A stretch of DNA of 64,000 bases from Myxococcota bacterium. GTDB taxonomy: Bacteria; Myxococcota_A; UBA9160; SZUA-336. The stretch is taken from contig JBBDXF010000038.1 of the NCBI GenBank assembly GCA_040902485.1, positions 229,134-293,133 of the forward strand, in the 5' to 3' direction. The translations under genes were made by a program, and so were the position numbers. The notes under the pieces are model-generated. The model did not search any database and was not told the DNA's origin. It saw only the letters and a list, made by a program, of their open reading frames with translations. The first letter of the stretch is position 1; every line of letters begins with the position of its first letter. Positions 13,608 to 58,231 of the stretch are shown here, piece by piece.

Positions 13608-13684
13608 TGGCGCGCCCGGCTGGACTCGAACCAGCGACCTGCGGATTAGAAGTCCGCTGCTCTATCCAGCTGAGCTACGGGCGC
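13608..13684 (-). tRNA. tRNA-Arg (anticodon TCT)
   Basis: The reverse complement folds as a cloverleaf: GCGCCCG/TA/GCTC-AGCTGGATA-GAGC/A/GCGGA-CTTCTAA-TCCGC/AGGTC/GCTGG-TTCGAGT-CCAGC/CGGGCGC-G-CCA. The anticodon loop CTTCTAA gives anticodon TCT. CCA is encoded. Confidence 0.9.
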
Positions 13685-25412: not shown

Positions 25413-25559
25413 GACGCTTGCGACTCGGGTGACGATCCGCGGAATGGCTCGGCTTCCTTTCAGCGCGGCGGAATGTACCAGAACAGGGGCATCCGCTTGA
25501 CAGCATCGAGGTCGGGTCCTACGCAGAGCCCGCAGTTTTCTGCAATAGGAGAGAGATCC

Positions 25560-25847
25560 GTGAAAGTTCGCCCCCTGCACGACCGGATCCTGGTCCGGCG
25601 TCTGGACGCCGAGACCAAGACCGCCGGCGGCATCATCATCCCCGACACCGCCAAGGAGAAACCCCAGGAAGCCAAAGTCGTGGCCGTGGGCGCCGGCAAG
25701 ATCGGCGACGACGGCAAGCGCCAGGCCATGGGCGTGAAGGCCGGGGATCGCGTCCTGTTCGGCAAGTACAGCGGCAGCGACGTGAAGATCGACGGCGACG
25801 ACCACCTGATCATCCGCGAGGAAGACGTCCTCGCGATTCTCGAATAG
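25560..25847 (+). CDS. groES: co-chaperonin GroES
   Basis: (M)[45 protein letters not shown].... GTG start with AGGAGAGAG RBS. Confidence 0.9.
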
Positions 25848-27503
<1,656 letters not shown>

Positions 27504-27530
27504 GCGCCGCGCCTACCCAAGCTCGAACGA

Positions 27531-27561
27531 ACGGGCCCCGGAGATTCCGTCTCCGGGGCCC
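27531..27561. terminator. GC-rich hairpin between convergent groEL and ackA (putative bidirectional terminator)
   Basis: Perfect inverted repeat GGGCCCCGGAGA-ttccg-TCTCCGGGGCCC. Confidence 0.55.
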
Positions 27562-27575
27562 GACTCGTTTCCGGC

Positions 27576-39347: not shown

Positions 39348-39421
39348 TCGGGGCGGCCGGATTCGAACCGGCGACCTTCTGCTCCCAAAGCAGACGCGCT
39401 ACCGAGCTGCGCTACGCCCCG
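39348..39421 (-). tRNA. tRNA-Pro (anticodon TGG)
   Basis: The reverse complement folds as CGGGGCG/TA/GCGC-AGCTCGGTA-GCGC/G/TCTGC-TTTGGGA-GCAGA/AGGTC/GCCGG-TTCGAAT-CCGGC/CGCCCCG-A. Anticodon TGG. CCA is not encoded. Confidence 0.9.
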
Positions 39422-42435: not shown

Positions 42436-43854
42436 GTGGCCCGAGATCCCCGAGGCATGATGCGCGCACCCCTCGCTGTCCTTCTCACCCTGCTCGGTGC
42501 GGTCGTGTGCGCGGATGCGTTCGCCGCCGATCCGCTCGCGAAGCCGAAGAGCGATCCCGCGACCAAGCCGAAGAAGACGGCCGAGAAGCCGCCCGAGCTC
42601 CTGCTCGAGATCGACTCACCCAGCAACGGCGCCGTGATCGGCGACCCGATGGGCTCGGCCTTCGTCTCGGGCAAGGCGCTCGCGCTGTTCGGCGAGTATC
42701 AGACCTTCGACATCGTGTTCGTGGTCGACACCTCGGACAGCACCGCCGCCCCGTCGGGCGCGGACATCGACGGCGACGGCGTGATCGGCGAACGGCGCGG
42801 CGAGAAATTCCTCTCGATCCTCGGACGCGTGCTGCCCCTGCCCAACAGCGACAAGGAGGACAGCATCCTCGCGGCCGAGGTCGCGGGCGTGCGCGAGCTG
42901 CTGAGGCAGCTCGACCCGCGCACCACGCGCGTGGGCATCGTCGCGTTCTCGGGCGACAACGACGCGCTCACCCCCGACGCCTACACGGAGGTGCCGCTCA
43001 CCACGGACTACGCCAAGGCCGAGGCCGGCCTCGACGACATCTTCCGGCGCGGCCCGAAGGGCCTCACGAACATGGTCTCGGCCGTGAACCTGGCGACCAT
43101 CGAGCTGCTCGGCTCACAGAGCGCGTACAGCACCAAACGCGAGGGCGCCAAGCGCGTGATCATGTTCCTGACCGACGGCCAGCCCACGCTGCCGCTCGAG
43201 AACTCGCAGCTCCAGAACGCGAAGATGGCGATCCAGCAGGCGGTGCGCGCGGCCAAGCTCGACGTGCGCATCGACACCTTCGCGATCGGCGAGGACGCGC
43301 TCTCCGAGCCCGTGGTGGTGGTCGAGATGGCGCGCGTCACGAGCGGCGTGTTCACGCCGGTGAAGAACCCGAAGGATCTGCGCGCGATCTTCGAGGACGT
43401 GAGCTTCTCCGACATCGACGAGCTCAGGGTGCGCAACAAGACCACCGACGTGCCCGCAGCCGAGCTGATCACGAATCCCGACGGCAGCTTCTCGGCGCTG
43501 CTCCCGATGAAGGTCGGCGAGAACGTGATCGAGGCCTACGCGCGCTCGACCGACGGCACGGCCGGACGGCGCGAGATCACGGTCAAGTTCCTGGAGGGCG
43601 CCGAGGCGCAGGCGCTCACGCCGCGCATGGTCGCGCAGCGCAACCGGCTGCTCGAGAACCGCCTGCTCGCGCTGCAGCGCCGCCGCGTCGAGATCAAGGC
43701 CGACGCCGACGAGGAAGTGCGGCGCGATCTTCAGGTCGAGATCGAGAAGGAGCGGGAACAGGCCCAGAAGGCCGCCGAGAAGATGCGCAAGGAGATCGAG
43801 CTCAGCGTCGAGAGGCAGGAGCAGGCCGAGAGGCAGCGCGCTCCCGCTCCCTGA
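42436..43854 (+). CDS. secreted von Willebrand factor A domain protein with charged coiled-coil C-terminal tail
   Basis: Signal peptide MMRAPLAVLLTLLGAVVCADA. MIDAS DIVFVVDTSDST. C-terminal ...RRVEIKADADEEVRRDLQVEIEKEREQAQKAAEKMRKEIE... Start at 42436 or 42457. Confidence 0.8.
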   Translation: MARDPRGMMRAPLAVLLTLLGAVVCADAFAADPLAKPKSDPATKPKKTAEKPPELLLEIDSPSNGAVIGDPMGSAFVSGKALALFGEYQTFDIVFVVDTSDSTAAPSGADIDGDGVIGERRGEKFLSILGRVLPLPNSDKEDSILAAEVAGVRELLRQLDPRTTRVGIVAFSGDNDALTPDAYTEVPLTTDYAKAEAGLDDIFRRGPKGLTNMVSAVNLATIELLGSQSAYSTKREGAKRVIMFLTDGQPTLPLENSQLQNAKMAIQQAVRAAKLDVRIDTFAIGEDALSEPVVVVEMARVTSGVFTPVKNPKDLRAIFEDVSFSDIDELRVRNKTTDVPAAELITNPDGSFSALLPMKVGENVIEAYARSTDGTAGRREITVKFLEGAEAQALTPRMVAQRNRLLENRLLALQRRRVEIKADADEEVRRDLQVEIEKEREQAQKAAEKMRKEIELSVERQEQAERQRAPAP

Positions 43855-44293
43855 GCAGCGCGCGGCGCCTCCTGGCGTAGCGCGCGAACGCCTTCGGGCG
43901 CTGGGCCTGCATGAAGCCGAGCAGGTCCTCGAAGGTGCGGAAGTAGTGCTTCCAGCCCTGCAGGCCCGAGCTCTTCTCGCAGTCCGTCCAGGAGAACTCC
44001 GAGCAGACCACCGGCCGGTCCACGTAGATCGCGCAGGTCTTGGCCTCGGTCAGGTTGCGGCAACGGGTCTGGAACTCCAGGTACCAGTCGCCCTCCCAGT
44101 CGATGTACACCGCGACGTTCTCGTGCGTCAGGTACCAGTAGACGTTCTCGTACTGCTTGAAGGTCGACGGGTCGTCGATCTGCGTGGCGATGTAGGTGCA
44201 GCACGCGCCGCAGCCCGAGCAGGGATGGGCGCCGGGCAGGCTCACGAGCGGCAGGTCGAGCGAGGCGGGCCGCGCTCCGGAATCGTCGGTCAA
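43802..44293 (-). CDS. YkgJ-family (CxxCxxCC) zinc/iron-chelating domain protein
   Basis: HPCSGCGACCTYI...CRNL...CAIYVDRPVVCSEF matches UPF0153/YkgJ. TTG start after GGAGAAA. The C-terminal 17 codons overlap the convergent VWA gene. Confidence 0.65.
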   Translation of the reverse strand: MTDDSGARPASLDLPLVSLPGAHPCSGCGACCTYIATQIDDPSTFKQYENVYWYLTHENVAVYIDWEGDWYLEFQTRCRNLTEAKTCAIYVDRPVVCSEFSWTDCEKSSGLQGWKHYFRTFEDLLGFMQAQRPKAFARYARRRRALLRERERAASRPAPASRR

Positions 44294-45168
44294 GGTTTCT
44301 CCAATTCGGGACGCGGCCGGCCCCAGAAGACCCGGGGCACATCGAACTTCGCGAACTGCTCGACCCGCTCCTGGCGGATCGCGGCGAGCTCGGTCCACTC
44401 GCTCGAGCCGTCGAGCACGGCGCGGATGCGCTCCTCGACCGTCAGGTAGGCGACCTGGCTCGGCGTCGCGAGCGTGCGCCGCGCGGCCAGCCGCACGCCG
44501 AGCTCCGCGACACAGCGCTGCTCGAGCGCGACCGCGGCGCGCAAGGCTGCATCGGGCTCGGCCTCGCCCACCAGGTACAGACGCTCGCCCAGCCAGGGCA
44601 GCAGGATCTCCGTCCAGGTGCGGTCGTCGAGCGGCCCGCGCGCGAGCTCGCCCGCGTCGAGGTCGCCGGGATCGAGCGAGGCCAGGCGCTCGAGCGCGCG
44701 CTCGCGCCGCTCGCAGGCGCGTTCGAAGCGGCGGTCCAGAGCCCCTGCGCGAAGCCGCGCGCGCAGCGCTTCGATCCGGTCGGGAACGCTGGCCAGGAAG
44801 CCCTGCGCCGGCTCGACCAGGTTCGGGTCGGGCACGTCGCCGGAGACGCGCGCGCGCATGCGCTCCCAGGCGTGCGCGTTCAGCGCGATGCGCCCGTAGT
44901 GGATCGCGACCCAGCGCGTCGGGCGCACGCGCGGCTGCAGGCCGAGCGTCTGCCAGATCTCGATCTGGGTCTGCTCGATCGGGTTGCCGAGCCGCGACCA
45001 CATCGACGGTGTGGCGATGCCGTCGAGCGGAGCGCCGAGCGGCTCGCGCGTCTGGCCGGGGTACATCGCGTCGGGCGGTGTCGAGATCGGGTACGCGGGG
45101 TCGTGCGCGCCTTCTGGCACGAGCTGTGGCAGGAACGGAGGATCGAGTCGCTCGTCGACCAGCGGCAT
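44290..45168 (-). CDS. hypothetical protein (292 aa)
   Basis: ATG start MPLVDERLDPPF.... No confident family. Its stop overlaps the YkgJ start (TTGA). Confidence 0.5.
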   Translation of the reverse strand: MPLVDERLDPPFLPQLVPEGAHDPAYPISTPPDAMYPGQTREPLGAPLDGIATPSMWSRLGNPIEQTQIEIWQTLGLQPRVRPTRWVAIHYGRIALNAHAWERMRARVSGDVPDPNLVEPAQGFLASVPDRIEALRARLRAGALDRRFERACERRERALERLASLDPGDLDAGELARGPLDDRTWTEILLPWLGERLYLVGEAEPDAALRAAVALEQRCVAELGVRLAARRTLATPSQVAYLTVEERIRAVLDGSSEWTELAAIRQERVEQFAKFDVPRVFWGRPRPELEKP

Positions 45169-45188
45169 GGCCCGAAAATAGCGGGGAC

Positions 45189-45848
45189 TCAGCGCTGTGC
45201 TACGGCCCCCGCTGTCGGAGTCTCTTCGACCCGGTAGTGGCGGGCCTCGTCGAAGATCTCGATCGGGCTCCAGGTCGGCACGTCGGAGAGCCGCACCAGC
45301 CGATCGGTGACCACGCCGGTCGGATCGAGCAGCCAGGGGTTGCTCTTGTCGCCGGCCTCGAACCAGAGCGTCACCATGTGGTGCTGGCCGCTGTCGCGCT
45401 CGACCACGATCGAGCGGAAGATCTCGTTCTGCGCGAAGCCGAGCTTGCGCAGCAGCATGAAGGTGAGCAGGTCGAGCCCGTCGCAGTCGTCGCCGTTGGT
45501 CGCGACCACATCCGAGTAGGTGGCCCAGTGATCGGTCTCGCCATCGGGGATGTAGTGCCGGTGGCTCTCGGACTGGATGAAGGCCACCGCGTCGGCCGCG
45601 ATCCTGCGCCGCATGTCGATCGTGAAGGCGTCGTAGGCCACGATCAGCTCCGACGCGGCGGCCGGCGCCTGGGCCGGGGCCTGCGCCTGGTCGAGCTTGT
45701 GGCGGCTCTGCCAGTTCCGAATCTTCGCGTTCCAGGGATCCTCGCGCGGGGCCGCGACGAAGAAATCGCGCGCAACACCCGGCAGGAAGCGCGCGTTCTG
45801 CGCGCAAGAGAGGAGCGTGAGGGCCGCGAGGGCGATGCCAAGACCCAT
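45189..45848 (-). CDS. lipoprotein, transglutaminase-like cysteine peptidase (BTLCP)-like
   Basis: Lipobox ALTLLSCAQ. GDDCDGLDLLTFMLLRKLGF resembles the BTLCP active-site Cys region (GDCEDYA-like). The assignment is tentative. Confidence 0.5.
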   Translation of the reverse strand: MGLGIALAALTLLSCAQNARFLPGVARDFFVAAPREDPWNAKIRNWQSRHKLDQAQAPAQAPAAASELIVAYDAFTIDMRRRIAADAVAFIQSESHRHYIPDGETDHWATYSDVVATNGDDCDGLDLLTFMLLRKLGFAQNEIFRSIVVERDSGQHHMVTLWFEAGDKSNPWLLDPTGVVTDRLVRLSDVPTWSPIEIFDEARHYRVEETPTAGAVAQR

Positions 45849-45945
45849 TCTGCGCAAGCCGCACTCTCCTCGACTCGCAGGCGCCGTCTGCGAATCGCCC
45901 CTCTCCAGTGCTGCAGATCGGCCCCGGAGGAAGCCGGCTTGAGAT

Positions 45946-47208
45946 TCAGAAGTAGACGTCGATCCGGGCGAAGTAGAGCGGGTCCAGGCCCCCGAAGTTG
46001 CCCTCCCCGTCCCGGCCGCCGAAGAACTGCGCGCCGACCGAGAGCTCGACACTTTGGAGCGCCGACCAGCTGACGACCGGGAAGAGCGCCTCGCTCGGGC
46101 CCTCCCAGTCGTGGATCCAGAGCAGGTCCAGCCGCACCAGCGGCGTCAGGTCGTAGCCAAGGTTCAGGCCCGTCTGGTTGCGCGAGACGGTCACCAGCTG
46201 CGAGGTCGGGACTACACCCGCCTGCGTCAGCAGCGCGAGGCCCTGGTCCGGGGTGAGCGGCGGCAGCGCGAAGAGCGTGTCGCGCAGCGCGTCGCGCGAG
46301 ACGGTGTTGCCGTTGTAGAAGTGCTCGACCAGCGCGTACAGGCCCGCGCCGAGGTCGAAGGTGTAGTCGAGCGAGGCCACCGCTTGCGTGGTGTGGCCGC
46401 CGTGCTCGTGGAAGGTCCACGTGCCCTCGCCGCGCAGCGCTGCGTCGCCGAGGTTCGTCGCGAAGTCGAAGCCGTACACGGAGTCGGTCTGGATGCGCGC
46501 GAACATCAGCGCCGCGTCCAGGCTGCGGCGCGAGAGCTCGAGCCGCAGCGCGCTGCGGTACAGGTCGTCGCGGTCCTGCGGCGCCACGATCGCGCTCGCC
46601 CAGAGCTCGCCCGCGACGCGCACGCGCGTGACCACCGAGTCGACGCCGATGCGCTGGTCGCCTTCGAGCGCGAGCGGCGGGATCGGGTTGAACAGGTCCG
46701 TCGGGTTCCACAGCCGCGCGCGTCCGAGCGCGATGCGCTGCCGGCCCACGGTGATCTCGACGTCGTCGCCCTCGTAGCGCACCCAGCCGCGGTACAAGAG
46801 GTGCTGCCAGGTGGCGTTGTGCGTGTCGGAGAGCGTGCGGTCGAGGTCGAGCCAGGTCTCGTGGCCGCGCTCTTCGGCGAGCGAGAAGCCGAGCGACTTG
46901 CGGCCCGTGCCGGTGAAGACCTCGTTGTCGTAGGAGAGCTGCGCGGAGAAGCGCTCGCGGTAGCGGGCCTGCAGGTCGACGCGCACGCGCGTCTGCGCGA
47001 GCAGGCTCGGCGAGACGCCGAGCGAGAACGTGCCGTCGGGCGCGGGGAAGACCTCGTCCGTGCGCATTTCCCGGGTCATGGCGACGAGCTCGCGCAGGCT
47101 CGCCGTGAGGTCGAGCTTCAAGTCGCCCGTGTCGAACTCGGCCGCGCGCGCCGCGCCGGCTTCGAGCAGCGCGGCGAGCGCGAGCGCCGCGCGGGCGGCG
47201 AACCTCAC
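45946..47208 (-). CDS. outer-membrane beta-barrel protein (hypothetical)
   Basis: Signal peptide VRFAARAALALAALLEAGAARAA. Alternating amphipathic strands. C-terminal ...YFARIDVYF ends in an aromatic residue. GTG start overlaps the upstream ABC ATPase stop. Confidence 0.65.
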   Translation of the reverse strand: MRFAARAALALAALLEAGAARAAEFDTGDLKLDLTASLRELVAMTREMRTDEVFPAPDGTFSLGVSPSLLAQTRVRVDLQARYRERFSAQLSYDNEVFTGTGRKSLGFSLAEERGHETWLDLDRTLSDTHNATWQHLLYRGWVRYEGDDVEITVGRQRIALGRARLWNPTDLFNPIPPLALEGDQRIGVDSVVTRVRVAGELWASAIVAPQDRDDLYRSALRLELSRRSLDAALMFARIQTDSVYGFDFATNLGDAALRGEGTWTFHEHGGHTTQAVASLDYTFDLGAGLYALVEHFYNGNTVSRDALRDTLFALPPLTPDQGLALLTQAGVVPTSQLVTVSRNQTGLNLGYDLTPLVRLDLLWIHDWEGPSEALFPVVSWSALQSVELSVGAQFFGGRDGEGNFGGLDPLYFARIDVYF

Positions 47209-47903
47209 GGGGTGCGCCGCTCGTCGCTCGCGATGCAGCCATCGACGAGCCGCACGATGCGCCGCGCGTGCGCCATCACGCGCGGGTCGTGCGTGCTGAA
47301 CAGGAACGTGACGCCGCGGTCCTGGTTCATCTGCAGCATGAGCGCCAGCAGGTCCTCGGCGGTCTTCGAGTCGAGGTTCGCGGTCGGCTCGTCGGCCAGC
47401 ACGATCTCGGGCTCGGACGCGATGGCGCGCGCGACCGCGACCCGCTGCTGCTGGCCGCCGCTCATCTCGCCCGGGCGCTTGTGCGCGAGCTCGCCGAGCC
47501 CGAGCTCTTCCAGGAACCGCAGCGCGCGCGCACGGCGCTCCGCGCGCGGCACGCCCTGCAGCAGCAGCACGAACTCGACGTTCTCCACCGCCGAGAGCAC
47601 CGGCACCAGGTTGTAGGACTGGAACACGAAGCCGAGCTTGCGCAGGCGCAGCTCCGCGCGCGCGGCCTCGCCCATGTCGGTGGTGTCCTCGCCGTCGACC
47701 AGGATCCGGCCCTCGGTCGGCCGGTCGAGCGTGCCGAGCAGGTTCAAGAGCGTCGTCTTGCCCGAGCCCGAAGGCCCGCACAGCGCCGAGAACTCGCCGC
47801 CCTCGATCCCGATCGACACGGCGTCGAGCGCGCGCGTCTCGAGCGCGCCCGCGCGGTAGATCTTCGTCGCCTCGACCGCTGCCAGGATGGGGCGCGCCAA
47901 CAT
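47205..47903 (-). CDS. ABC transporter ATP-binding protein (LolD/MacB-ATPase-like)
   Basis: Walker A GPSGSGKTT. Signature LSGGQQQRVAVARA. Walker B ILLADEP. Confidence 0.9.
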   Translation of the reverse strand: MLARPILAAVEATKIYRAGALETRALDAVSIGIEGGEFSALCGPSGSGKTTLLNLLGTLDRPTEGRILVDGEDTTDMGEAARAELRLRKLGFVFQSYNLVPVLSAVENVEFVLLLQGVPRAERRARALRFLEELGLGELAHKRPGEMSGGQQQRVAVARAIASEPEIVLADEPTANLDSKTAEDLLALMLQMNQDRGVTFLFSTHDPRVMAHARRIVRLVDGCIASDERRTP

Positions 47904-47909
47904 CGTCTC

Positions 47910-49157
47910 CTAAATGTGTCGGATCGCTTCGGCCGGGCGCAGGCGCACGGCCTTCCAGGCCGGCCAGAGCGCGGCCAGCACCGCGGTGATCAGCGCGACC
48001 ACGACCGGCAGGATCAGGTCGCGCCGCTCGATGCGCGTGTACACGGTCGTGCCGATGCCGAACTCGGTCAGGCCGTCGGCGAAGCGGGTCAGGTCGATGC
48101 CGACCTCGCCGAGCCAGAGCACGATCGGAACCCCGACCGCCAGCCCGATCAGCGTCCCGGCCACCGTCATCACGATCGACTCGAGCAGCACCAGCGCCAG
48201 CAGCCGGCTCGACTGCAGGCCGAGCGCGCGCAGCATGCCGAACTCGCGGATGCGCTCGTAGACCATCATCAAGAGCGCGTTCGCGATCCCGAACGCCATC
48301 GCCACGAAGACCGCGCCGTAGATGACCCAGGTCATGTCGGCCATCAGGCCGAGCAGCGCCGCCATGCGCGGCTCGCGCTCCTTCCAGGTCAGCACGTCGA
48401 GCGCGGCGTCGGGCAACGCGGCGGCGAGCGCGGCCCGGGCCGTGGCGTGCAGCTCCGGCAGGCGGTCGGGATCGTCGAGCAGCACCGCGACCTCGGTCAC
48501 GCGGTCGGGCACGGACAGGAGCCGCTGCGCGTCCTCGAGGCGCAGGTACGCGTGGCTGCGGTCGAACTCCGACGACGAGCTGCGGAAGATGCCCGACACG
48601 CGGAACGCGCCGAGCCCGACCTCGCCGGGCGCGTGCACCACCACCTTGTCGCCGAGCTTCACGCGCAGCCGCTCGGCCATGGCCGCGCCGATGGCGATGC
48701 CCGGAAGGCGCCGCGAGCCGGTCGTCACGAGCGGCACCGGCAGCTTGCCCTCGACCAGCGCGCGAGAGAGGATCGAGACGCGTTGCTCGCGCAGCGGATC
48801 GACGCCGACCAGCACGACCCGCGAGCTGCGCCGCGCGCTCTGCAGCAGGCCGTCGCCGACCAGGCGCGGAGAAGCGTGCGCGCCGGGGAAGCGCTCCAGC
48901 GCCTCGACGATCGCGCGCCCGCTGTCGGGCAGGTTGCGCTGCACGTCGGGGTTCTTCTGGTAGCCCGACGCGAGCACGGCCAGGTGCCCGAGCCGCGTCG
49001 AGACGGCGTTGTCGACCATCTGGCGCACGAGCCCGTTGCTCCAGCCGACCAGCAGGAGACACGCCGAGAGCCCGACCGTGATCGCGACCAGCACGACGGC
49101 GCTGCGCCGCCAGCCGCGCAGCAGGTTCCGCCAGGCGATCACGAACAGCGTCGTCAC
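47910..49157 (-). CDS. ABC transporter permease, FtsX-like (LolC/E-type)
   Basis: N-terminal TM, large periplasmic domain, then three C-terminal TM helices of FtsX topology (…LRALGLQSSRLLALVLLESIVMTVAG…). Confidence 0.8.
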   Translation of the reverse strand: MTTLFVIAWRNLLRGWRRSAVVLVAITVGLSACLLLVGWSNGLVRQMVDNAVSTRLGHLAVLASGYQKNPDVQRNLPDSGRAIVEALERFPGAHASPRLVGDGLLQSARRSSRVVLVGVDPLREQRVSILSRALVEGKLPVPLVTTGSRRLPGIAIGAAMAERLRVKLGDKVVVHAPGEVGLGAFRVSGIFRSSSSEFDRSHAYLRLEDAQRLLSVPDRVTEVAVLLDDPDRLPELHATARAALAAALPDAALDVLTWKEREPRMAALLGLMADMTWVIYGAVFVAMAFGIANALLMMVYERIREFGMLRALGLQSSRLLALVLLESIVMTVAGTLIGLAVGVPIVLWLGEVGIDLTRFADGLTEFGIGTTVYTRIERRDLILPVVVALITAVLAALWPAWKAVRLRPAEAIRHI

Positions 49158-49159
49158 GT

Positions 49160-50401
49160 TCAGGTCGCCCGCAGCGCGTCGACGGGCCGGCCGCGACTCG
49201 CGCGGATGGCCGGCGGGATGGCGGCGACGAGGCCCACCGCAACCAGCAGCAGTGGCAGCGTCACGAGCTGATTGCGGCCGAGCGCGAACATGATCAGCGG
49301 CTCCAGGTCGAACAGCTCGATCGACGCGCGCGCGCCCTCGCCGGTGATCGGGATCGGGTGCTGCGCGAGCCAGAGCACGAGCGGAATGCCGATCGCGAAG
49401 CCGATCGCGATCCCGAGCAGGGTCAGCTGCACGGATTCGATCAGCACCAGCGCGAACACCGCGCGCGGGCGCAGCCCCAGCGCGCGCAGCACGCCGAACT
49501 CGCGCACGCGCTCGAACACCGACATCAGGATCGTGTTCAGGAGCCCGAAGCCGACCACCACGATCAGCACCGCATTGCCGATCCAGTTGCCGACGTCGTC
49601 GAGCATCATGAACTGCAGCAGGTCGGGCATGAGCTCCTGCCAGGGCAACACCTCGTAGTCTGCGCCGGGGAAGTCGGCGTCGAGCTCGCGGCCCACGCTC
49701 GCCAGACTGCCGCTCTCGGGCAGGAACACCGCGACGTGCGAAACGGCGCTGCCCGCCTCGAGGAACGCGCGCAGCTCGTCCAGGTCGACCAGTGCGCCGA
49801 AGCCGTCGAACTCGTCGTCGCCGACCGCGAACGTGCCGACCACCGTGAAGCGATCGGCCGACTGCGAGCCGAAGGCGTCGGCGGAGAGCACGATCACCGC
49901 GTCGCCGAGCGAGACGCCGAGGTTTCTCGCGAGCAGTGCGCCGAGCGTGATCTCGCGCGCGCCGTTCGCGGGCTCCGCCATGCGGCCGGCCTCGATCGAG
50001 CCGACCAGCTTCGACAGGCGCCGCTCGCGCGCCAGGTCGATGCCGAACAGCTGCACGCCGCGGCCGGTCGCGTCGTCGCGGTCGGCCGAGATCAGCCCCC
50101 AGGCCTCGAGCCGCGGCGCCCAGCCCTCCGCGCCGCTGAGCGCGTCGAGCTTGCGCTCCGCGGCGGCGTCGAGCGGCAGCGCGTAGTCGAGCGTGCGGTA
50201 CTCGCGGTAGCCGGCCAGGCTCACCTGGAAGTGGCCGGGATAGAGCCTCACCGCGTGCTCGATCCAGCGCTCGTGACTGCCGTCGCCCACGGCCAGGTTC
50301 AGCATCGAGAGCACGGTCGCGAACACGCCCGCCGCGACCGTGAGCGCGGTGCGGCGCTTGTTGCGGCCGAGGTTCCGCCAGGCGAGCCGCAACAGCATCA
50401 T
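49160..50401 (-). CDS. ABC transporter permease, FtsX-like (second copy)
   Basis: MMLLRLAWRNLGRNKRRTALTVAAGVFATVLSM... C-terminal FtsX helices (…LRALGLRPRAVFALVLIESVQLTLLG…). Its start overlaps the stop of the LolA-like gene (ATGA). Confidence 0.8.
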   Translation of the reverse strand: MMLLRLAWRNLGRNKRRTALTVAAGVFATVLSMLNLAVGDGSHERWIEHAVRLYPGHFQVSLAGYREYRTLDYALPLDAAAERKLDALSGAEGWAPRLEAWGLISADRDDATGRGVQLFGIDLARERRLSKLVGSIEAGRMAEPANGAREITLGALLARNLGVSLGDAVIVLSADAFGSQSADRFTVVGTFAVGDDEFDGFGALVDLDELRAFLEAGSAVSHVAVFLPESGSLASVGRELDADFPGADYEVLPWQELMPDLLQFMMLDDVGNWIGNAVLIVVVGFGLLNTILMSVFERVREFGVLRALGLRPRAVFALVLIESVQLTLLGIAIGFAIGIPLVLWLAQHPIPITGEGARASIELFDLEPLIMFALGRNQLVTLPLLLVAVGLVAAIPPAIRASRGRPVDALRAT

Positions 50402-51186
50402 CAGCGCGCGGCCTCGGACTGGCGCAGGTTCTTCTGCGTGAAGATCGCGTCGTCGAGCTTCACGTCGAAGGCGGCTTCCTCGAGCACGACGCGCGTCGAG
50501 TGGCCGGGCTTGTCGTTCGGCAGCATCAGCCACAGGTGCGGCAGCGGCCGGCCCGCCACCGTGCGCACGTCCGAGAAGCGCAGCTCGCGGATCGCCTCGA
50601 AGCGGCCCGGCTCGGGCTCGTCGTAGTACACGAACAGGATCGGCGCGAGCCGCTCCTTCTCGATCCACAGCTCCATGCGCGCCCAGACCACGGGCGCCTC
50701 CGGCAAGGGCGTGAGCTCGATGCCCAGCGCCGCGACGCCGTCGATCGCCTTCTCGTCGAGCAGCTTCGGCTCGTAGTCCTTCTGCAGCGACGACTCGCGC
50801 GCGAGGTCGTCGTTGGTGAAGTCGCTGCCCATCCACGGCTGCAGCATCATCGACGGCGGAATGCGCATGGCGCGCTCGACCTTCGGCAGCCAGGTCCAGA
50901 ACGCGTCGTGGTCGCGCAGGAAGCCGGTGCCCTTGTCCTTGGGCGGCTCGAGCACGCGCGAGAAGCTGCGATCGCCGAGCTGGTCGTCCCAGCTGCGGAT
51001 CACCAGCTCGCGCGTCCAGCGCGGCGTGGTGATGGTCATGCGCAGCTTCATCTCGCTGGTGTTGCCGCGCAGCGCGTCCTCGGCGCGGCGCACGAGCTCC
51101 TTCACGTCGAGCTCCTCCGCATGCGGCGCGGAGCTCGTGAAGCCGAGCAGCACGAGCACGAGCCCGACGACACCGATCCGCGTCAT
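50401..51186 (-). CDS. periplasmic outer-membrane-lipoprotein-sorting (LolA-like) protein
   Basis: Signal peptide MTRIGVVGLVLVLLGFTSSAPHA. ~260-aa beta-rich protein of the LolA-like family commonly paired with FtsX permeases. Confidence 0.6.
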   Translation of the reverse strand: MTRIGVVGLVLVLLGFTSSAPHAEELDVKELVRRAEDALRGNTSEMKLRMTITTPRWTRELVIRSWDDQLGDRSFSRVLEPPKDKGTGFLRDHDAFWTWLPKVERAMRIPPSMMLQPWMGSDFTNDDLARESSLQKDYEPKLLDEKAIDGVAALGIELTPLPEAPVVWARMELWIEKERLAPILFVYYDEPEPGRFEAIRELRFSDVRTVAGRPLPHLWLMLPNDKPGHSTRVVLEEAAFDVKLDDAIFTQKNLRQSEAAR

Positions 51187-51779
51187 GCGCTGATCCCCCG
51201 CCAAAAGACCTCCTCCGCCGCGCGAAACGGCCCCTCCAGGTCGAGCTCGGGCCGCATCAGCTTGGCGAGCATCAAGCCGTCGATGGTGGCGTCGATCAGC
51301 AGCCCCACGTCCGCCGCCGCGACCGGCCGCAGCGTTCCGTCCGCCACGCCGCGCGCGATCTGCTTTTCCACGGCGGCCTTCCACACCCCGTGCGCGCGGT
51401 CGGCCCGCACGCGGATCTCGTCGTCGCGCGCGCTCTGCGCGATGTACTCGAGCGCGAGCTTGAAGAACGGCAGGCCGGCGTCGAACTGCTGGCGCACGCG
51501 CGCGAACACCTCGTGCAGGGCGCTGCGCCAGTCCGGGGCGTCGGCCACGGCCTCGAGCTCCTGCAGCGCGCGCTCCGAGAAGCGGTCGACCAGCGCCAGG
51601 AAGAGCTCGCGCTTGCCCGCGAAGTGCCAGTAGATCGCGCCCTTGGAGAGCCCGGCCCGGGCCGCGATGTCGTCGACCGAGGTCTCGTGGTAGCCGCGGG
51701 CCGCGAAGCCGGCGAGCGCCGCGTCGAGGATCTCGCCCCGGCTGATCTCGGGCTTCCTGCGCGCCGCTCGCCGCGCCAT
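51183..51779 (-). CDS. TetR-family transcriptional regulator
   Basis: N-terminal HTH ILDAALAGFAARGYHETSVDDIAARAGLSKGAIYWHF. Divergent from ileS. Confidence 0.85.
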   Translation of the reverse strand: MARRAARRKPEISRGEILDAALAGFAARGYHETSVDDIAARAGLSKGAIYWHFAGKRELFLALVDRFSERALQELEAVADAPDWRSALHEVFARVRQQFDAGLPFFKLALEYIAQSARDDEIRVRADRAHGVWKAAVEKQIARGVADGTLRPVAAADVGLLIDATIDGLMLAKLMRPELDLEGPFRAAEEVFWRGISA

Positions 51780-51917
51780 CGCTCCCCGCTCCGTAACCGA
51801 CTGACCAGTCGGTACGCTACCGGGCCGATTCGCCGCCGGCAAGCCCCGGCCGGTATGTCCCGAGGATCGCAGGACTTTTTTGCGCGGCCCCGGACCCGCC
51901 GGTAGCATCCCCCGGTC

Positions 51918-55097
<3,180 letters not shown>

Positions 55098-55117: not shown

Positions 55118-58100
55118 TCAGGGCTTGCCCGAGTCCGACGGTCCCTTGGCCTCGCCCGCGGCCGGCGGGCGCTCGACGGCGGCCGCGCGTTTCGCGTGCT
55201 CGTCGAGCAGGCGCACGACCGGCGCGTACTTCCGCTCCTCCGCGAGGCTGCGCGCGGTGACTCCGCCGCGACCCGTGACCGCCGGATTCGCACCGCGCAG
55301 CAGGAGATACTCGACCACCTCTGTGTAGCCGCCCATCGCTGCGACCATCAGCGGAGTGAGTGAGCGCTCGTCGCGCGCCTCGATGTCAGCCCCGCCCTTC
55401 TCCACCAGGAGCGCGGTGCTGGGCAGGTTTCCGGCGGCCGCGGAGAAGGTGAGCGCGGTCATGCCGTCGCGGTCGCGCATGTCCGGATCGACCTTCATCG
55501 CCAGCAGGACCGCCACGACGTCGGCGTGGTCGTTGCTGGCCGCGGCCATCAGCGGCGTGCCGCCCAGATCGTTGGCCTCGTTGCCGTCGGCACCCGCCCG
55601 GAGGAGCTCGACGACGATCTCCGTCTTGCCGGCGAGCGCAGCGTAGAGCAGCGCGTTCCAGCCTCGGAAGTCGCGAGCCGAGGCCGGCACGCCGCGGCCG
55701 AGCACCTGCTTCACCTCGTCGAGATTGCCGCTGCGCGCGGCCTCGATCAGCTCGCGTTCGTCGCGCATCGCCGCGCGGCTCGCACCGCCGGGCAAGCTGT
55801 CGCCATCGCCCTCGGCGAGCTTCGCCCAGGCGGCCGCGCTCGCCCGGTCGATCGTCGCGAACACGCGCGCCATGCCCCGATCGTAGGCCTCCATCAGCGC
55901 GGTCCGACCCTTGAGATCACGCGCGAGCGGATCGACCTTCGCCTCCACCAGCAGCTCGACCACCCGAACGCTGCCGCTGCGCGCGGCCAGGTGCAGCGCG
56001 GTCTGACCGGCGGAATTCGCCGCGTTCGGATCGGCGCCCGAGGACAGCAGGCGCGAGGCGATCTCGGACTGACCCGCGGCCGCCGCGCGCATCAGCGCCG
56101 TCCAGCCGTCGCGATCGGCGGTGTTCGGCTGCGCGCCGACTTCGAGCAGGAGCGTGACGAGCGCGTAGTCGCCGCGCCGCGCCGCCTGCTGCAGCGCCGT
56201 CTCACCCGCGAGCGACGCCGTGCTCGGGTCGGCGCCCTTCGCGATCAGCTTCCGCGCGATTTCGGTCTGGCTCGACGCCGCGGCCTGCAGCAGCGCGCTG
56301 CGGCCCGATGGGTCGCGCAGGGCCGGGTCCGCTCCGCGCGCGAGCAGCAGGTCGACCATCGGCGCGTGCCCCTTGCCGACCGCGTACATGAGCGGCGTCT
56401 GACCGTTGCGGCTGGCCGCGTCGACGTTGGCACCCGCGCCCGCGAGCAGCTCGACCAGCTCGAGGTGGCCGTTCGCGACGGCGGCGCGCAGCGCGGTGGC
56501 GCCCCCGTCGTCCTTGATCTCGAGCTCGGCGCCGGCTTCGACCAGCAGCTTCGCACTGTTCAGACGGCCCGCCGACGCCGCGAACATCAGCGCGGTGCGG
56601 CCGTCGGCATTGCGCGCGTCGACGCTCGCCCCGCCCTTCAGCTCGGCGACCACGGTGGCGTCGTTGCCGCGCCAGGCCGCGTCCATCAGGATCGTGTGCT
56701 CGCCGCGCGACGCGCTGGTGCGCGCGAACGCGGGATCGCTCTCCGCCTGCTGCAGCAGCGCGGCGACGCGCGAGAAGCCGGCGCGCGCGGCCAGCTCGCG
56801 AGCCGTCGAGCCGCTCGCGTCGGTCTTCTTCGCGTCGGCGCCGGCCGAGAGCAGGAACTTCACCACCTCGAGGTTGCCCGTGGTCGCGCCGGCCATCAGC
56901 GGCGTCAGTCGCTGCTTGCCGAGCTCGAAGTCGAGGTTGGCGCCCGCCGTGGTGAGCTGCTTCAGCGCCTTCAGCTGTCCGCGCGCGGCGGCGTGCGCGA
57001 GCGCGTTCGCTCCGGTCCTGTCGGCGAGCTCGAGGTTCGCGCCCGCCTCCACCAGCTGGGTGATCACGTCGTTGCGATTGCCGCGCACCGCGAGGATCAG
57101 CGCGGTCGTGCCCTCGGCGTCCTGCTCGTCGAGCTCCGCGCCCGCCTCGATCAGCGAGCGCACGAAGTTCGCGAGGCCCATCGAGGCGCCGAACATCAGC
57201 GCCGTGCGGCCGTCCTCGCCGCGCATCGTCAGCATCGCGCTGCCGATGGTCGGATCGCCGGATCCGACGCCGGAGAACACGCGCGCCACCGCGTCGTGTC
57301 TCGCCTCGAGCGCGATCACGAGCGGCGTCAGCCCGAGGGCATTGCGCCGCTTGATGTCTCCGCCCGCGTCGACCAGGCGCAGGGCGATCTCCGGATCGCC
57401 TCGGCTCGCGGCCAGGTGCAGCGGGGTATCACCGTTCGCCGACGGCTGGTCGGGATCGGCGCCGGCGACGACCAGCTCGTCGACCTGGTCGCGGTCGCCG
57501 TTGCGCACGGCGTAGAACAGCGCGGTAGCCCCGTCCGACGCGGCCGCGTTCACTTCGGCTTTGGCCTCGATCAGCTCGGTCACGACCTTCCTGCGCCTCT
57601 GCTTGGCGGCGACCACCAGCGCGGTGGCGCCGTCGCGGCGTCGCATCTCGGTGTCGGCGCCGGCCTTGGCGAGCTCGCGCACCACGTCCACGTGCCCTTC
57701 GATCGCTGCCAGCATCAGCGCCGTCGAGCCGCCGCGATCGGTGAGATCGAGCGACGCTTTGCGCCCGACCAGCACGTAGACGACCGCGGCGCTGCCGCGC
57801 ACGGCCGCCTTCATCAGCGCGGTCTCTCCACTCGCGTCGGCTGCGTCGATCGGCGCGCCCGCGTCGAGCAACGCCTGCGCGAGCGTCGAGTCGTCGTGCG
57901 AGGCCGCCAGCTGGAGCGCCGTGTCGCCCTGCTCGCTGCGCGAGGTCGGGCTCGCCCCCCGCTCCAGCAGCAGCTTGACCGTCTCGGTCTGGCCGGTGGA
58001 CGCAGCGTGCATGAGCGCGGTCCAGCCGTCCCGGTCGGCCGAGTCCACCGGAACCTCGCGCGACAGCAGCGCCCCGACCGCCAGGCGGTCGCCCACGCGG

Positions 58101-58231
58101 GCCGCTTCGCGCAGCAGCTCCGCCTCCCGCTCCAGGTTTTCCGCGGGATCCGGCAGGTTCTGCGCATGGCCGGGCCGCGCCGCCGCGAGCAGCAGCATGA
58201 GCGAGCCGGCGACCAGCAGGAGGCGACGCAT
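55118..58231 (-). CDS. secreted ankyrin-repeat protein (~30 ANK repeats, 1037 aa)
   Basis: Signal peptide MRRLLLVAGSLMLLLAAARPGHA. Continuous 33-aa ANK repeats (DGWTALMHAASTGQTETVKLLLERGA...). Same strand as, and 52 bp downstream of, the PqiC-like gene. Confidence 0.85.
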   Translation of the reverse strand: MRRLLLVAGSLMLLLAAARPGHAQNLPDPAENLEREAELLREAARVGDRLAVGALLSREVPVDSADRDGWTALMHAASTGQTETVKLLLERGASPTSRSEQGDTALQLAASHDDSTLAQALLDAGAPIDAADASGETALMKAAVRGSAAVVYVLVGRKASLDLTDRGGSTALMLAAIEGHVDVVRELAKAGADTEMRRRDGATALVVAAKQRRRKVVTELIEAKAEVNAAASDGATALFYAVRNGDRDQVDELVVAGADPDQPSANGDTPLHLAASRGDPEIALRLVDAGGDIKRRNALGLTPLVIALEARHDAVARVFSGVGSGDPTIGSAMLTMRGEDGRTALMFGASMGLANFVRSLIEAGAELDEQDAEGTTALILAVRGNRNDVITQLVEAGANLELADRTGANALAHAAARGQLKALKQLTTAGANLDFELGKQRLTPLMAGATTGNLEVVKFLLSAGADAKKTDASGSTARELAARAGFSRVAALLQQAESDPAFARTSASRGEHTILMDAAWRGNDATVVAELKGGASVDARNADGRTALMFAASAGRLNSAKLLVEAGAELEIKDDGGATALRAAVANGHLELVELLAGAGANVDAASRNGQTPLMYAVGKGHAPMVDLLLARGADPALRDPSGRSALLQAAASSQTEIARKLIAKGADPSTASLAGETALQQAARRGDYALVTLLLEVGAQPNTADRDGWTALMRAAAAGQSEIASRLLSSGADPNAANSAGQTALHLAARSGSVRVVELLVEAKVDPLARDLKGRTALMEAYDRGMARVFATIDRASAAAWAKLAEGDGDSLPGGASRAAMRDERELIEAARSGNLDEVKQVLGRGVPASARDFRGWNALLYAALAGKTEIVVELLRAGADGNEANDLGGTPLMAAASNDHADVVAVLLAMKVDPDMRDRDGMTALTFSAAAGNLPSTALLVEKGGADIEARDERSLTPLMVAAMGGYTEVVEYLLLRGANPAVTGRGGVTARSLAEERKYAPVVRLLDEHAKRAAAVERPPAAGEAKGPSDSGKP

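What the first reader, a model, noticed from the sequence alone, without database searches (positions are those of the whole stretch)
43802..51779. Nine-gene minus-strand run: TetR, LolA-like protein, two FtsX permeases, ABC ATPase, dedicated outer-membrane beta-barrel, BTLCP-like lipoprotein, hypothetical, YkgJ, with start/stop overlaps throughout
**Seen in the sequence**
- The gene order on the minus strand is tetR (51779→51183), LolA-like periplasmic protein, FtsX permease, FtsX permease, LolD-like ATPase, a 420-aa outer-membrane beta-barrel (C-terminal ...IDVYF), a transglutaminase-like cysteine-peptidase-like lipoprotein, a 292-aa hypothetical, and a YkgJ CxxCxxCC protein.
- Several junctions are ATGA, GTGA or TTGA overlaps, which implies translational coupling.

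**Inference**
- The core resembles Lol/MacB-type envelope exporters, but with its own outer-membrane barrel and a LolA-like partner. This suggests a self-contained trans-envelope export or lipoprotein-sorting machine of unknown substrate.
- The substrate may be the adjacent lipoprotein peptidase.
Basis: partly seen in the sequence, partly recalled or inferred. Interest (0 to 1): 0.55.

Follow-up and report, generated by a model that had tools for sequence, protein, structure and literature searches.

The report
Lol-like ABC exporter with own barrel
The nine-gene run is real, but it holds two separable parts: a widely conserved, uncharacterised five-gene envelope exporter with a regulator in front, and an unrelated three-gene neighbour module that includes the lipoprotein.

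Summary
All nine minus-strand genes exist at the stated coordinates. The family calls hold, except that the "BTLCP-like" call is only weakly supported.

- **Junctions:** four are true overlaps and two are gaps of 2 and 6 nt. An 88-97 nt gap after the barrel gene holds a conserved element.
- **Core synteny:** a barrel-seeded genome scan found the order LolA-like, FtsX, FtsX, ATPase, barrel in 48 of 55 informative loci. These loci carry labels from ten or more phyla.
- **Cultured hosts:** Burkholderia and Ralstonia plasmids carry a variant with a fused permease.
- **Barrel:** it is an 18-strand, Occ/AlgE-like barrel, only distantly DUF1302-like, and no Pfam family covers it.
- **Carrier:** the LolA-like protein is soluble and belongs to PF17131. 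Its closest solved structure is P. gingivalis LolA3.
- **Downstream trio:** the lipoprotein, the 292-aa protein and YkgJ occur only in one Myxococcota clade, where the flanking genes are syntenic too. In one genome the trio is present without the exporter. The lipoprotein is therefore not the exporter's general substrate.

Best reading: an inducible system under TetR control that follows Lol/MacB logic. It would extract a hydrophobic cargo from the inner membrane, pass it to the periplasmic carrier, and deliver it to a dedicated outer-membrane barrel. The cargo is unknown.

This is a new variant of known kinds: the DUF1302/DUF1329/RND cassettes, the Bacteroidota TetR-MMPL-LolA3 operons, and the Borrelia BBJ23-29 cluster.

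The parts
51796..51813 (.). Candidate TetR operator: the inverted repeat ACCGACTG-ac-CAGTCGGT, about 17 nt upstream of the tetR ATG.
   Evidence: It is the only invariant block in the otherwise divergent tetR upstream regions of 9 related loci. Variants lie upstream of tetR in L001, L002, L004, L005, L007 and L016. The window holds a single match; 0.37 are expected by chance, so the count alone is not significant.
51183..51779 (-). TetR/AcrR-family regulator, 198 aa. Its stop overlaps the LolA-like start (ATGA).
   Evidence: TetR_N 3.4e-20 and TetR_C_6. A TetR gene lies directly upstream of the core, on the same strand or divergent, in about 24 loci.
50401..51186 (-). Soluble periplasmic LolA-superfamily protein (PF17131, LolA_like / TP_0789-like), 261 aa, with an SPI signal peptide and no lipobox.
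   Evidence: PF17131 7.1e-45. The closest solved structure is 9tp6, P. gingivalis LolA3, at 4e-15; 3buu, 3bk5 and 4z48 also match. None of 55 homologues has a lipobox.
49160..50401 (-). FtsX-type permease 1 (MacB_PCD periplasmic domain plus FtsX C-terminal domain), 413 aa.
   Evidence: Pfam. It is 32% identical to FtsX2. Position-specific orthologues occur across phyla. Best PDB matches are LolF and LolC.
47910..49157 (-). FtsX-type permease 2, 415 aa, GTG start. Probable heterodimer partner of permease 1.
   Evidence: Pfam. LolF 3e-24 and LolC 8e-19. The LolC/LolF hook region is 8-9 residues shorter here.
47205..47903 (-). LolD/MacB-type ABC ATPase, 232 aa, with intact Walker A, signature, Walker B and H-loop motifs.
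   Evidence: ABC_tran 4.5e-34. The best NCBIfam hit is LolD at 215 bits, below the 308 cut-off. The motifs are read from the sequence.
45946..47208 (-). Dedicated 18-strand outer-membrane beta-barrel, 420 aa, with a signal peptide and an invariant C-terminal Phe. Its start overlaps the ATPase stop (GTGA).
45858..45945 (-). Conserved intergenic element upstream of the lipoprotein gene: CTCAAG-N16-CCGAT ... GGAGGGGC ... AGGA ... start codon. It is probably the trio's own promoter or leader.
   Evidence: It is conserved in loci whose barrels are only about 59% identical. It is retained upstream of the lipoprotein gene in a genome that lacks the exporter. There is no Rfam match, and its folding energy is not unusual (z -0.8).
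45189..45857 (-). Lipoprotein (lipobox LLSC), a distant relative of LapG/BTLCP-type cysteine peptidases. It belongs to a separate neighbour module.
   Evidence: Invariant C, HH and D residues plus the lipobox. The profile hits LapG structures 4u65 and 4fgo at E 0.002-0.007. There are 542 homologues of 220-224 aa.
44290..45168 (-). Cytoplasmic 292-aa helical protein. It resembles the substrate-binding helical domain of rifampin phosphotransferase and has no ATP-grasp or His domain.
43802..44293 (-). YkgJ-type CxxCxxCC protein (PF03692). Its TTG start overlaps the stop of the 292-aa gene.
   Evidence: PF03692 7.7e-9, 36.6 bits against a cut-off of 23. It always follows the 292-aa gene in related loci.

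Best explanation
Genes 51779-45946 form an accessory envelope exporter, probably under TetR control.

**Proposed mechanism**
1. A heterodimer of two FtsX/MacB-type permeases, driven by two copies of a LolD-like ATPase, extracts a hydrophobic cargo from the outer leaflet of the inner membrane. This step follows the mechanotransmission model of LolCDE and MacB.
2. The permeases hand the cargo to a soluble periplasmic LolA-superfamily carrier (PF17131).
3. The carrier shuttles to, or sits docked on, a dedicated 18-strand outer-membrane barrel. The barrel inserts the cargo into the outer membrane or releases it.

The cargo is more likely a lipid or a small hydrophobic molecule than the bulk lipoproteome.

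The three downstream genes (LapG-like lipoprotein, 292-aa helical protein, YkgJ) are a separate neighbour module with its own upstream control region.

**Shown:** gene content, protein families, localisation signals, barrel fold, cross-phylum synteny and separability of the trio.

**Inferred:** complex formation, direction of transport, hand-off order, nature of the cargo and TetR control.
For: **Synteny**
- The exact order LolA-like, FtsX1, FtsX2, ATPase, barrel occurs in 48 of 55 loci that have enough upstream sequence. Most of the rest are variants with a single permease or a changed order.
- Record labels span Myxococcota, Ignavibacteriota, Calditrichota, Bacteroidota, Acidobacteriota, Gemmatimonadota, KSB1, Nitrospirota, Campylobacterota and Betaproteobacteria.
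- Cultured Burkholderia thailandensis and Ralstonia plasmids carry LolA-like, ATPase, fused double FtsX and barrel.

**Components**
- Pfam calls. The best NCBIfam neighbours are lolCE and LolD. The best PDB neighbours are LolF and LolC.
- The carrier has an SPI signal and no lipobox in 55 of 55 homologues.
- The barrel is an 18-strand fold with an invariant C-terminal Phe.

**Coupling and regulation**
- The six genes from tetR to the barrel are separated by overlaps or by gaps of at most 6 nt.
- A conserved palindrome lies upstream of tetR.

**Analogues in the literature**
- AmeABCD in Castellaniella combines a DUF1302 barrel, a LolA-superfamily protein and an HAE3 RND pump. It confers monoterpene tolerance and dye efflux (PMC6394551).
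- DUF1302, DUF1329, BNR and RND genes show cofitness (10.1101/072470).
- AlphaFold-Multimer predicts a DUF1302-DUF1329 complex with ipTM 0.84 (PMC13499233).
- TetR-MMPL-LolA3 operons are strongly induced by iron or hemin limitation in P. gingivalis and Prevotella (PMC10470040, PMC10434189).
- P. gingivalis LolA3 binds LolB only weakly, if at all. Deleting lolA3 in F. johnsoniae gave no lipoprotein-related phenotype (PMC13103446, PMC11885536).

**Trio is separate:**
Against: - There is no experimental or transcript data for this cassette.
- I could not model any protein-protein interaction here.
- The LolC/LolF hook that recruits LolA is shortened in both permeases. Carrier docking, if it occurs, must differ from the Lol mode.
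- The barrel might instead act as an independent channel.
- TetR is missing from many loci, so regulation is not a fixed feature.
- The operator count in the window is not significant on its own.
- The cargo is unknown, and the preference for lipid or small hydrophobe over lipoprotein rests on analogy.
- In L082 a 38%-identical TetR sits next to the trio with no exporter present. TetR may therefore also, or instead, serve the trio.
Confidence: 0.6

Rival explanations
1. A second, specialised Lol pathway. The ABC complex extracts a subset of lipoproteins, possibly surface-exposed ones or the neighbouring LapG-like lipoprotein. The LolA-like protein carries them, and the barrel acts as an insertase or flippase in place of LolB.
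For: The closest characterised relatives of the permeases and the ATPase are LolF/LolC/LolE and LolD. The carrier belongs to the LolA superfamily. A lipoprotein gene lies directly downstream. The same idea has been proposed for Borrelia BBJ23-29 (PMC13078400).
Against: - All Lol equivalog scores fall far below their cut-offs.
- The hook is shortened in both permeases.
- The cassette occurs in about 60 loci without this lipoprotein. The lipoprotein occurs without the cassette and has its own upstream element.
- P. gingivalis LolA3 binds LolB only weakly, if at all. F. johnsoniae lolA3 deletion has no phenotype, and surface lipoproteins localise normally without any LolA or LolB homologue (PMC13103446, PMC11885536).
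- Regulation by a TetR-type repressor suits small-ligand induction rather than housekeeping sorting.
Confidence: 0.2
2. All nine genes form one operon and one machine. The cytoplasmic 292-aa protein and YkgJ would make or load the cargo, and the lipoprotein would be a component or the substrate.
For: The genes share a strand and have short gaps. No terminator-like site lies between them. They are co-located in every Myxococcota locus of this clade that extends far enough.
Against: - In that clade the unrelated flanking genes (IleRS, VWA) are equally syntenic.
- The trio is absent from all other phyla that carry the core.
- L022 lacks the lipoprotein, and L015 and L016 have about 1 kb inserted before it.
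- The trio occurs without the exporter in L082 and L083.
- A conserved upstream element travels with the trio.
Confidence: 0.1
3. An uptake or acquisition system for hydrophobic nutrients. The barrel would be the entry channel and the LolA-like protein a periplasmic binding protein, as has been suggested for DUF1302/DUF1329 in growth on fatty esters.
For: DUF1302/DUF1329 mutants lose fitness on Tween 20 and butyl stearate (10.1101/2020.07.04.188060). The barrel fold matches substrate-specific uptake channels of the Occ family, ChiP and maltoporin.
Against: By established knowledge of the family, FtsX/MacB-type (type VII) ABC transporters are known only as exporters or mechanotransducers and have no transmembrane substrate path for import. 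No solute-binding-protein family was detected. The closest relatives are extractors such as LolCDE.
Confidence: 0.07

Closest known systems
LolCDE-LolA-LolB lipoprotein sorting (E. coli); LolDF in other bacteria
   Same: Both have two FtsX-type permeases with MacB_PCD periplasmic domains, a LolD-like ATPase and a soluble periplasmic LolA-superfamily protein. The genes are tightly coupled.
   Different: - All Lol equivalog models score far below their cut-offs.
- The carrier is PF17131, not canonical LolA.
- The hook hairpin is shortened.
- The outer-membrane partner is an 18-strand barrel, not the LolB lipoprotein.
- The system is accessory, is associated with TetR and is patchily distributed.
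DUF1302/DUF1329/HAE3-RND cassettes (AmeABCD of Castellaniella defragrans; Sama_1588-1591; PP_0765/0766)
   Same: Both combine an 18-strand barrel, a LolA-superfamily periplasmic protein and an energised inner-membrane transporter. The barrel here gives sub-threshold hits to DUF1302. Its structural neighbours, Occ and AlgE, are the same as those published for DUF1302 (PMC13499233).
   Different: - The energiser is a type VII ABC transporter, not an RND pump.
- There is no BNR/COG4447 protein.
- The barrel is shorter (420 aa against about 540-600) and fails the Pfam threshold.
- The carrier is PF17131, not PF07044.
Bacteroidota TetR-MMPL-LolA3-hypothetical operons (P. gingivalis PG1175-81 / PGN0947; Prevotella intermedia)
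   Same: Both have a TetR regulator and a PF17131 carrier. LolA3 (9tp6) is the closest solved homologue, at 4e-15. These operons are inducible accessory systems.
   Different: The inner-membrane component there is an MMPL/RND transporter, with additional ABC ATPases. I could not test whether the hypothetical gene in those operons is a homologous barrel.
Borrelia burgdorferi lp38 BBJ23-29 predicted export system (PMC13078400)
   Same: [quoted passage not shown]
   Different: The Borrelia barrel is of the Omp85/BamA-TamA type. Its permease is a homodimer, and extra chaperone-like genes are present.
MacAB-TolC and DevCBA-HgdD tripartite type VII ABC efflux pumps
   Same: [quoted passage not shown] DevCBA exports glycolipids.
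   Different: There is no membrane-fusion (HlyD-type) adaptor and no TolC-type trimeric duct. A soluble LolA-like protein and a monomer-type 18-strand barrel take their place.

Membership tests
Type VII (MacB/FtsX) ABC transporter | Permease with an N-terminal TM helix, a MacB_PCD periplasmic domain and a C-terminal FtsX domain, plus a separate or fused ABC ATPase. | tested here: met
   Both permeases match PF12704 and PF02687 above the cut-offs. The ATPase matches PF00005 at 4.5e-34.
LolCDE (canonical lipoprotein-releasing system) | Scores above the NCBIfam equivalog cut-offs for lolCE (TIGR02212) and LolD (TIGR02211). | tested here: not met
   The permeases score 109 and 139 bits against a cut-off of 362. 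The ATPase scores 215.5 bits against 307.75.
LolCDE (canonical lipoprotein-releasing system) | A LolC-type hook hairpin of full length for recruiting LolA. | tested here: inconclusive
   HMMER alignments show 8-9 residues missing in FtsX2 relative to LolC and LolF, and 5 missing in FtsX1 relative to LolF. No structural model was made.
LolA (PF03548) periplasmic carrier | A match to the canonical LolA family. | tested here: not met
   Only PF17131 (LolA_like / TP_0789-like) matches, at 153 bits against a cut-off of 30. There is no NCBIfam hit.
PF17131 LolA_like / TP_0789-like | A Pfam match above the gathering score, and secretion as a soluble protein. | tested here: met
   7.1e-45. PDB relatives are 9tp6, 4z48, 3buu and 3bk5. 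The signal is SPI type, with a lipobox in none of 55 homologues.
DUF1302 (PF06980) outer-membrane barrel | A Pfam match above the gathering score. | tested here: not met
   The window protein scores 15 bits against a cut-off of 23.2. Seven of 27 homologues give sub-threshold hits, the best at 2.3e-5. Five of 27 hit Alginate_exp.
DUF1302 (PF06980) outer-membrane barrel | An 18-strand barrel whose closest solved folds are the Occ family and AlgE. | tested here: met
Tripartite efflux pump (MacAB-TolC type) | An HlyD-type membrane-fusion protein and a TolC-type outer-membrane factor in the cluster. | tested here: not met
   None of the nine proteins matches either family.
BTLCP / LapG cysteine peptidase (PF06035; NF045674) | A family-model match above the cut-off. 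| tested here: not met
   There is no Pfam hit at E<=0.01. The NCBIfam LapG model scores 21.6 bits against a cut-off of 320.
BTLCP / LapG cysteine peptidase (PF06035; NF045674) | A conserved Cys-His-Asp catalytic triad in register with LapG. | tested here: inconclusive
   C122, H156/H157 and D175 are invariant in 13 homologues. They align with the LapG structures 4u65 and 4fgo, but only at E 0.002-0.007.
TetR/AcrR regulators | A TetR_N helix-turn-helix domain plus a TetR C-terminal ligand domain. | tested here: met
   PF00440 at 72 bits and PF13977 at 34.8 bits.
YkgJ / CxxCxxCC (PF03692) | A Pfam match above the gathering score. | tested here: met
   36.6 bits against a cut-off of 23.

The most novel reading that the evidence does not exclude
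The five-gene cassette is a previously unrecognised, widespread route across the periplasm for hydrophobic molecules. An ABC extractor loads a PF17131 carrier. The carrier docks on a dedicated 18-strand barrel that passes lipid-like cargo, or acylated proteins, to the cell surface. This would work in parallel to Lol, Lpt and Mla, with the RND-powered DUF1302/DUF1329 systems as its sister branch.
Probability: 0.3. Interest if true: 0.75.

Novelty: new variant of a known kind. Interest (0 to 1): 0.5.

Why it matters
How Gram-negative cells move hydrophobic molecules other than LPS and bulk lipoproteins to or through the outer membrane is only partly understood.

- **Breadth:** the barrel family has about 1700 representatives of 50%-identity clusters at E<=1e-10, and it occurs in many phyla.
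- **Annotation gap:** the barrel has no Pfam family and is annotated "hypothetical" everywhere I looked.
- **Design principle:** the cassette links a LolCDE-like extractor to a DUF1302-like barrel through a LolA-like protein. This suggests a modular plan of carrier plus barrel, driven by either an ABC or an RND energiser.
- **Tractability:** homologues on Burkholderia thailandensis and Ralstonia plasmids make the system testable by genetics.
- **Annotation:** the LapG-like lipoprotein, the 292-aa protein and YkgJ should not be annotated as parts of this exporter.

Tried and rejected
**Searches that gave nothing useful**
- Promoter and terminator consensus scan of 43400-52100: no promoter, and one terminator-like site inside tetR that is within chance.
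- Rfam on the region: nothing at E<=1.
- Folding of the barrel-lipoprotein spacer: not more stable than shuffled sequence, z -0.8.
- Sequence profile of the 292-aa family against PDB: no hit at E<=10.
- Foldseek against afdb50: the library was not available.
- Literature search for TP0789: one paper, nothing functional.
- Burkholderia cenocepacia papers that mention PF17131: proteomic listings only.

**Leads checked and dropped**
- Exception loci L032 and L017, where the barrel lacks the full ABC set, were scanned for an MMPL partner. None was found.
- Neighbour genes in Melioribacteraceae and other loci were scanned for cargo hints. They are PAP2, a phosphorylase, an SSF symporter and EamA, with no consistent pathway.
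- No other FtsX or LolA-like paralogue lies in the window.
- The ACCGAC-N6-GTCGGT site count in the window is not significant on its own. The case for an operator rests on conservation.

**Readings rejected**
- Canonical LolCDE.
- MacAB-TolC-type pump.
- The lipoprotein as the general substrate.

Full report
**1. What is in the sequence**

The window has about 71% G+C. Its nearest public relative is an uncultured Deltaproteobacteria/Myxococcota MAG, with the barrel 92% identical in L001.

Nine minus-strand genes lie between the divergent IleRS gene (51918-55097, +) and a convergent VWA-domain gene (42436-43854, +). Their boundaries come and are listed in the parts. The lipoprotein gene is the exception, as explained below.

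Junctions read directly:

| Junction | Finding |
|---|---|
| tetR / LolA-like | ATGA overlap |
| LolA-like / FtsX1 | TGATG, 1-nt overlap |
| FtsX1 / FtsX2 | 2-nt gap |
| FtsX2 / ATPase | 6-nt gap with an AGGAG |
| ATPase / barrel | GTGA overlap |
| barrel / lipoprotein | 88-97 nt gap |
| lipoprotein / 292-aa gene | 20-nt gap |
| 292-aa gene / ykgJ | TTGA overlap |

The first six genes are therefore tightly coupled. "Overlaps throughout" does not hold for the whole run.

The lipoprotein start is better placed at the TTG at 45857, giving MRRMGLG....
- An ATG, GTG or TTG followed by CGC is conserved at that position, and a conserved GGAG lies upstream of it.
- Database homologues are 220-224 aa long and align over 100% of the 222-aa form.

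**2. Identity of the parts**

- **Pfam matches:** TetR_N with TetR_C_6, PF17131 LolA_like at 7e-45, MacB_PCD with FtsX twice, ABC_tran and CxxCxxCC.
- **Not canonical Lol:** NCBIfam places the permeases and the ATPase nearest lolCE and LolD, but far below the equivalog cut-offs. The permeases score 109 and 139 bits against 362. The ATPase scores 215 bits against 308.
- **Permeases:** the two are 32% identical. Their best PDB matches are LolF and LolC. In the segment that aligns with the LolC/LolF hook, FtsX2 is 8-9 residues shorter and FtsX1 is 5 shorter.
- **Carrier:** the LolA-like protein has an SPI-type signal and no lipobox, as do all 55 homologues examined. Its closest solved relative is 9tp6 at 4e-15. 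That entry is P. gingivalis LolA3, which binds LolB-PG only weakly, if at all (PMC13103446). Deleting lolA3 in F. johnsoniae gave no phenotype (PMC11885536).
- **Barrel:** it has no Pfam or NCBIfam family.
  - An AF2 model built on 27 homologues has pLDDT 88.8.
  - The C-terminal Phe is invariant. So is a segment GRQRI.LGR..WNP.DLFN that lies in a long stretch with no predicted strand.
  - Seven of 27 homologues give sub-threshold DUF1302 hits, the best at 2.3e-5. The window protein scores 15 bits against 23.2.
  - It is thus a distant relative of DUF1302. Its structural neighbours are the same as those published for DUF1302 (PMC13499233).
  - A full HMMER scan found 1725 representatives of 50%-identity clusters at E<=1e-10 and 3165 at E<=1e-3.
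- **Lipoprotein:** it has an invariant lipobox and invariant C122, H156/H157 and D175. A profile reaches the LapG structures only at E 0.002-0.007. "BTLCP-like" is plausible, but family membership is not established.

**3. Is the arrangement conserved?**

I scanned one genome per species with barrel motifs, which returned 80 loci, and searched them with the nine window proteins.
- Of the 55 loci with at least 4.3 kb upstream of the barrel, 48 show exactly LolA-like, FtsX1, FtsX2, ATPase, barrel. Nine of those also have tetR in front on the same strand.
- In those loci the first permease always matches FtsX1 best and the second FtsX2. The duplication is therefore old and the pair is probably a heterodimer.
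- Variants include single-permease forms (L021, L025, L026), a changed order (L063) and fused permeases (L027).
- Record labels span Myxococcota, Ignavibacteriota/Melioribacteraceae, Calditrichota, Bacteroidota, Rhodothermales, Kryptonia, Acidobacteriota, Gemmatimonadota, KSB1, Nitrospirota, Deferribacteres, Campylobacterota and Betaproteobacteria. These are MAG labels as deposited, and a few are probably mis-binned.
- Cultured hosts exist. Plasmids of Burkholderia thailandensis and of three Ralstonia strains carry "outer membrane lipoprotein-sorting protein", ABC ATPase, an 830-aa fused permease and a "hypothetical protein" that is the barrel. A UbiB-family kinase gene follows.
- A TetR gene lies next to the core in about 24 loci. 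It is co-directional in Myxococcota and divergent in Melioribacteraceae.

**4. The three downstream genes are a different module**

- **Restricted distribution:** they follow the barrel only in the Myxococcota clade (L001-L016, L022, L081). The IleRS and VWA flanks are conserved there too, so the co-occurrence amounts to general synteny.
- **Loose attachment:** L022 lacks the lipoprotein. L015 and L016 have about 1 kb inserted ahead of it.
- **Trio without exporter:** in GCA_029261895.1 (L082, and the same arrangement in L083) the neighbourhood is IleRS, glyoxalase, TetR, lipoprotein, 285-aa protein, CxxCxxCC, VWA. The five-gene exporter is absent.
- **Own upstream element:** the spacer before the lipoprotein gene holds conserved blocks, CTCAAG-N16-CCGAT ... 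GGAGGGGC ... AGGA. These persist at about 59% barrel identity and are retained in L082, which has no exporter. The spacer has no Rfam match and no unusual folding energy. I read it as the trio's own promoter or leader, which is an inference.

The proposal that the lipoprotein is the exporter's substrate is therefore not supported as a general explanation.

**5. Regulation**

The only invariant block in the tetR upstream regions of nine loci is a palindrome. Most loci have ACCGACTGGTCGGT. The window has ACCGACTG-ac-CAGTCGGT at 51796-51813. The single match in the window is not significant by count, with 0.37 expected. The argument rests on conservation and position. TetR autoregulation of tetR through the barrel gene is inferred and not shown.

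**6. Mechanism and comparison**

The best-supported model is export with Lol/MacB logic. The ABC extractor passes cargo to a soluble PF17131 carrier, which delivers it to a dedicated 18-strand barrel.

Known analogues point the same way.
- AmeABCD combines a DUF1302 barrel, a LolA-superfamily protein and an HAE3 RND pump. It contributes to monoterpene tolerance and dye efflux (PMC6394551).
- DUF1302, DUF1329, BNR and RND genes are cofit across several bacteria (10.1101/072470).
- A DUF1302-DUF1329 complex is predicted with ipTM 0.84 (PMC13499233).
- TetR-MMPL-LolA3 operons are among the genes most strongly induced under iron or hemin limitation in P. gingivalis and Prevotella (PMC10470040, PMC10434189).
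- Borrelia BBJ23-29 combines a MacB-like ABC transporter, a LolA-like protein and an Omp85 barrel (PMC13078400).

I favour a lipid or small hydrophobic cargo over lipoproteins for three reasons: the association with TetR, the LolA3 data, and the AmeABCD precedent. This preference is by analogy only.

**7. Verdict**

The cassette is a new variant of known kinds, with an ABC transporter in place of the RND pump in carrier-plus-barrel systems. It is widespread and uncharacterised. I found no description of it in the searchable literature.

Interest is moderate at 0.5. The system is not categorically new. It is a broad, testable gap in envelope biology, and cultured hosts are available.

Noticed in passing
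L082 7959-10908 and L083 759-3708 (GCA_029261895.1, JAJDAK010000012.1): The neighbourhood is the same (IleRS, TetR, lipoprotein, 285-aa protein, CxxCxxCC, VWA), but the five exporter genes are absent. The TetR there is 38% identical to the window's TetR and lacks the palindrome upstream.
   Followed up: partly
window 45858-45945: This intergenic spacer is conserved (CTCAAG-N16-CCGAT ... GGAGGGGC ... AGGA) across loci whose proteins have diverged to about 59% identity. It could be a lineage-specific promoter or leader. It has no Rfam match.
   Followed up: partly
window 51796-51813: A perfect 8+2+8 inverted repeat, ACCGACTGacCAGTCGGT, lies upstream of tetR. It is the only invariant block in the orthologous upstream regions. 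L014 carries several tandem copies of related half-sites.
   Followed up: partly
window 44290-45168: The 292-aa protein looks like a stand-alone copy of the helical substrate-binding domain of rifampin phosphotransferase / PEP-synthase-like enzymes. It is always followed by a YkgJ-type CxxCxxCC protein. The function of this pair is unknown.
   Followed up: partly
L084 2919-9754 (B. thailandensis plasmid p1) and L085 2862-9787 (Ralstonia insidiosa pB1901): The betaproteobacterial variant of the cassette has the ATPase before a fused double-FtsX permease. A UbiB/ABC1-family kinase gene follows on the same strand. This may hint at an isoprenoid or quinone-type lipid.
   Followed up: no
L021, L025, L026 (single FtsX); L063 (barrel placed before the permeases); L043 (three FtsX genes): These are architectural variants of the cassette. 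The single-permease forms may work as homodimers, in parallel with LolF as against LolC/LolE.
   Followed up: no
window 55118-58231 (-): This ORF of about 1037 aa is densely packed with ankyrin repeats (16 Ank_2 stretches, E 1e-178). That is unusual for a bacterial protein of this size.
   Followed up: no
window 24001-28000: The strong positive AT skew (0.2-0.3) coincides with groES and groEL (Cpn10 at about 25.5 kb, Cpn60 at 25860-27503). It probably reflects composition from Lys/Glu-rich, highly expressed genes.
   Followed up: partly
window 13608-13684 and 39348-39421: tRNA-Arg(TCT) and tRNA-Pro(TGG) genes lie here, both on the minus strand.
   Followed up: no
window 42436-43854 (+): A secreted VWA-domain protein with a C-terminal charged coiled-coil-like tail converges on ykgJ. 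It is syntenic across the whole Myxococcota clade.
   Followed up: no
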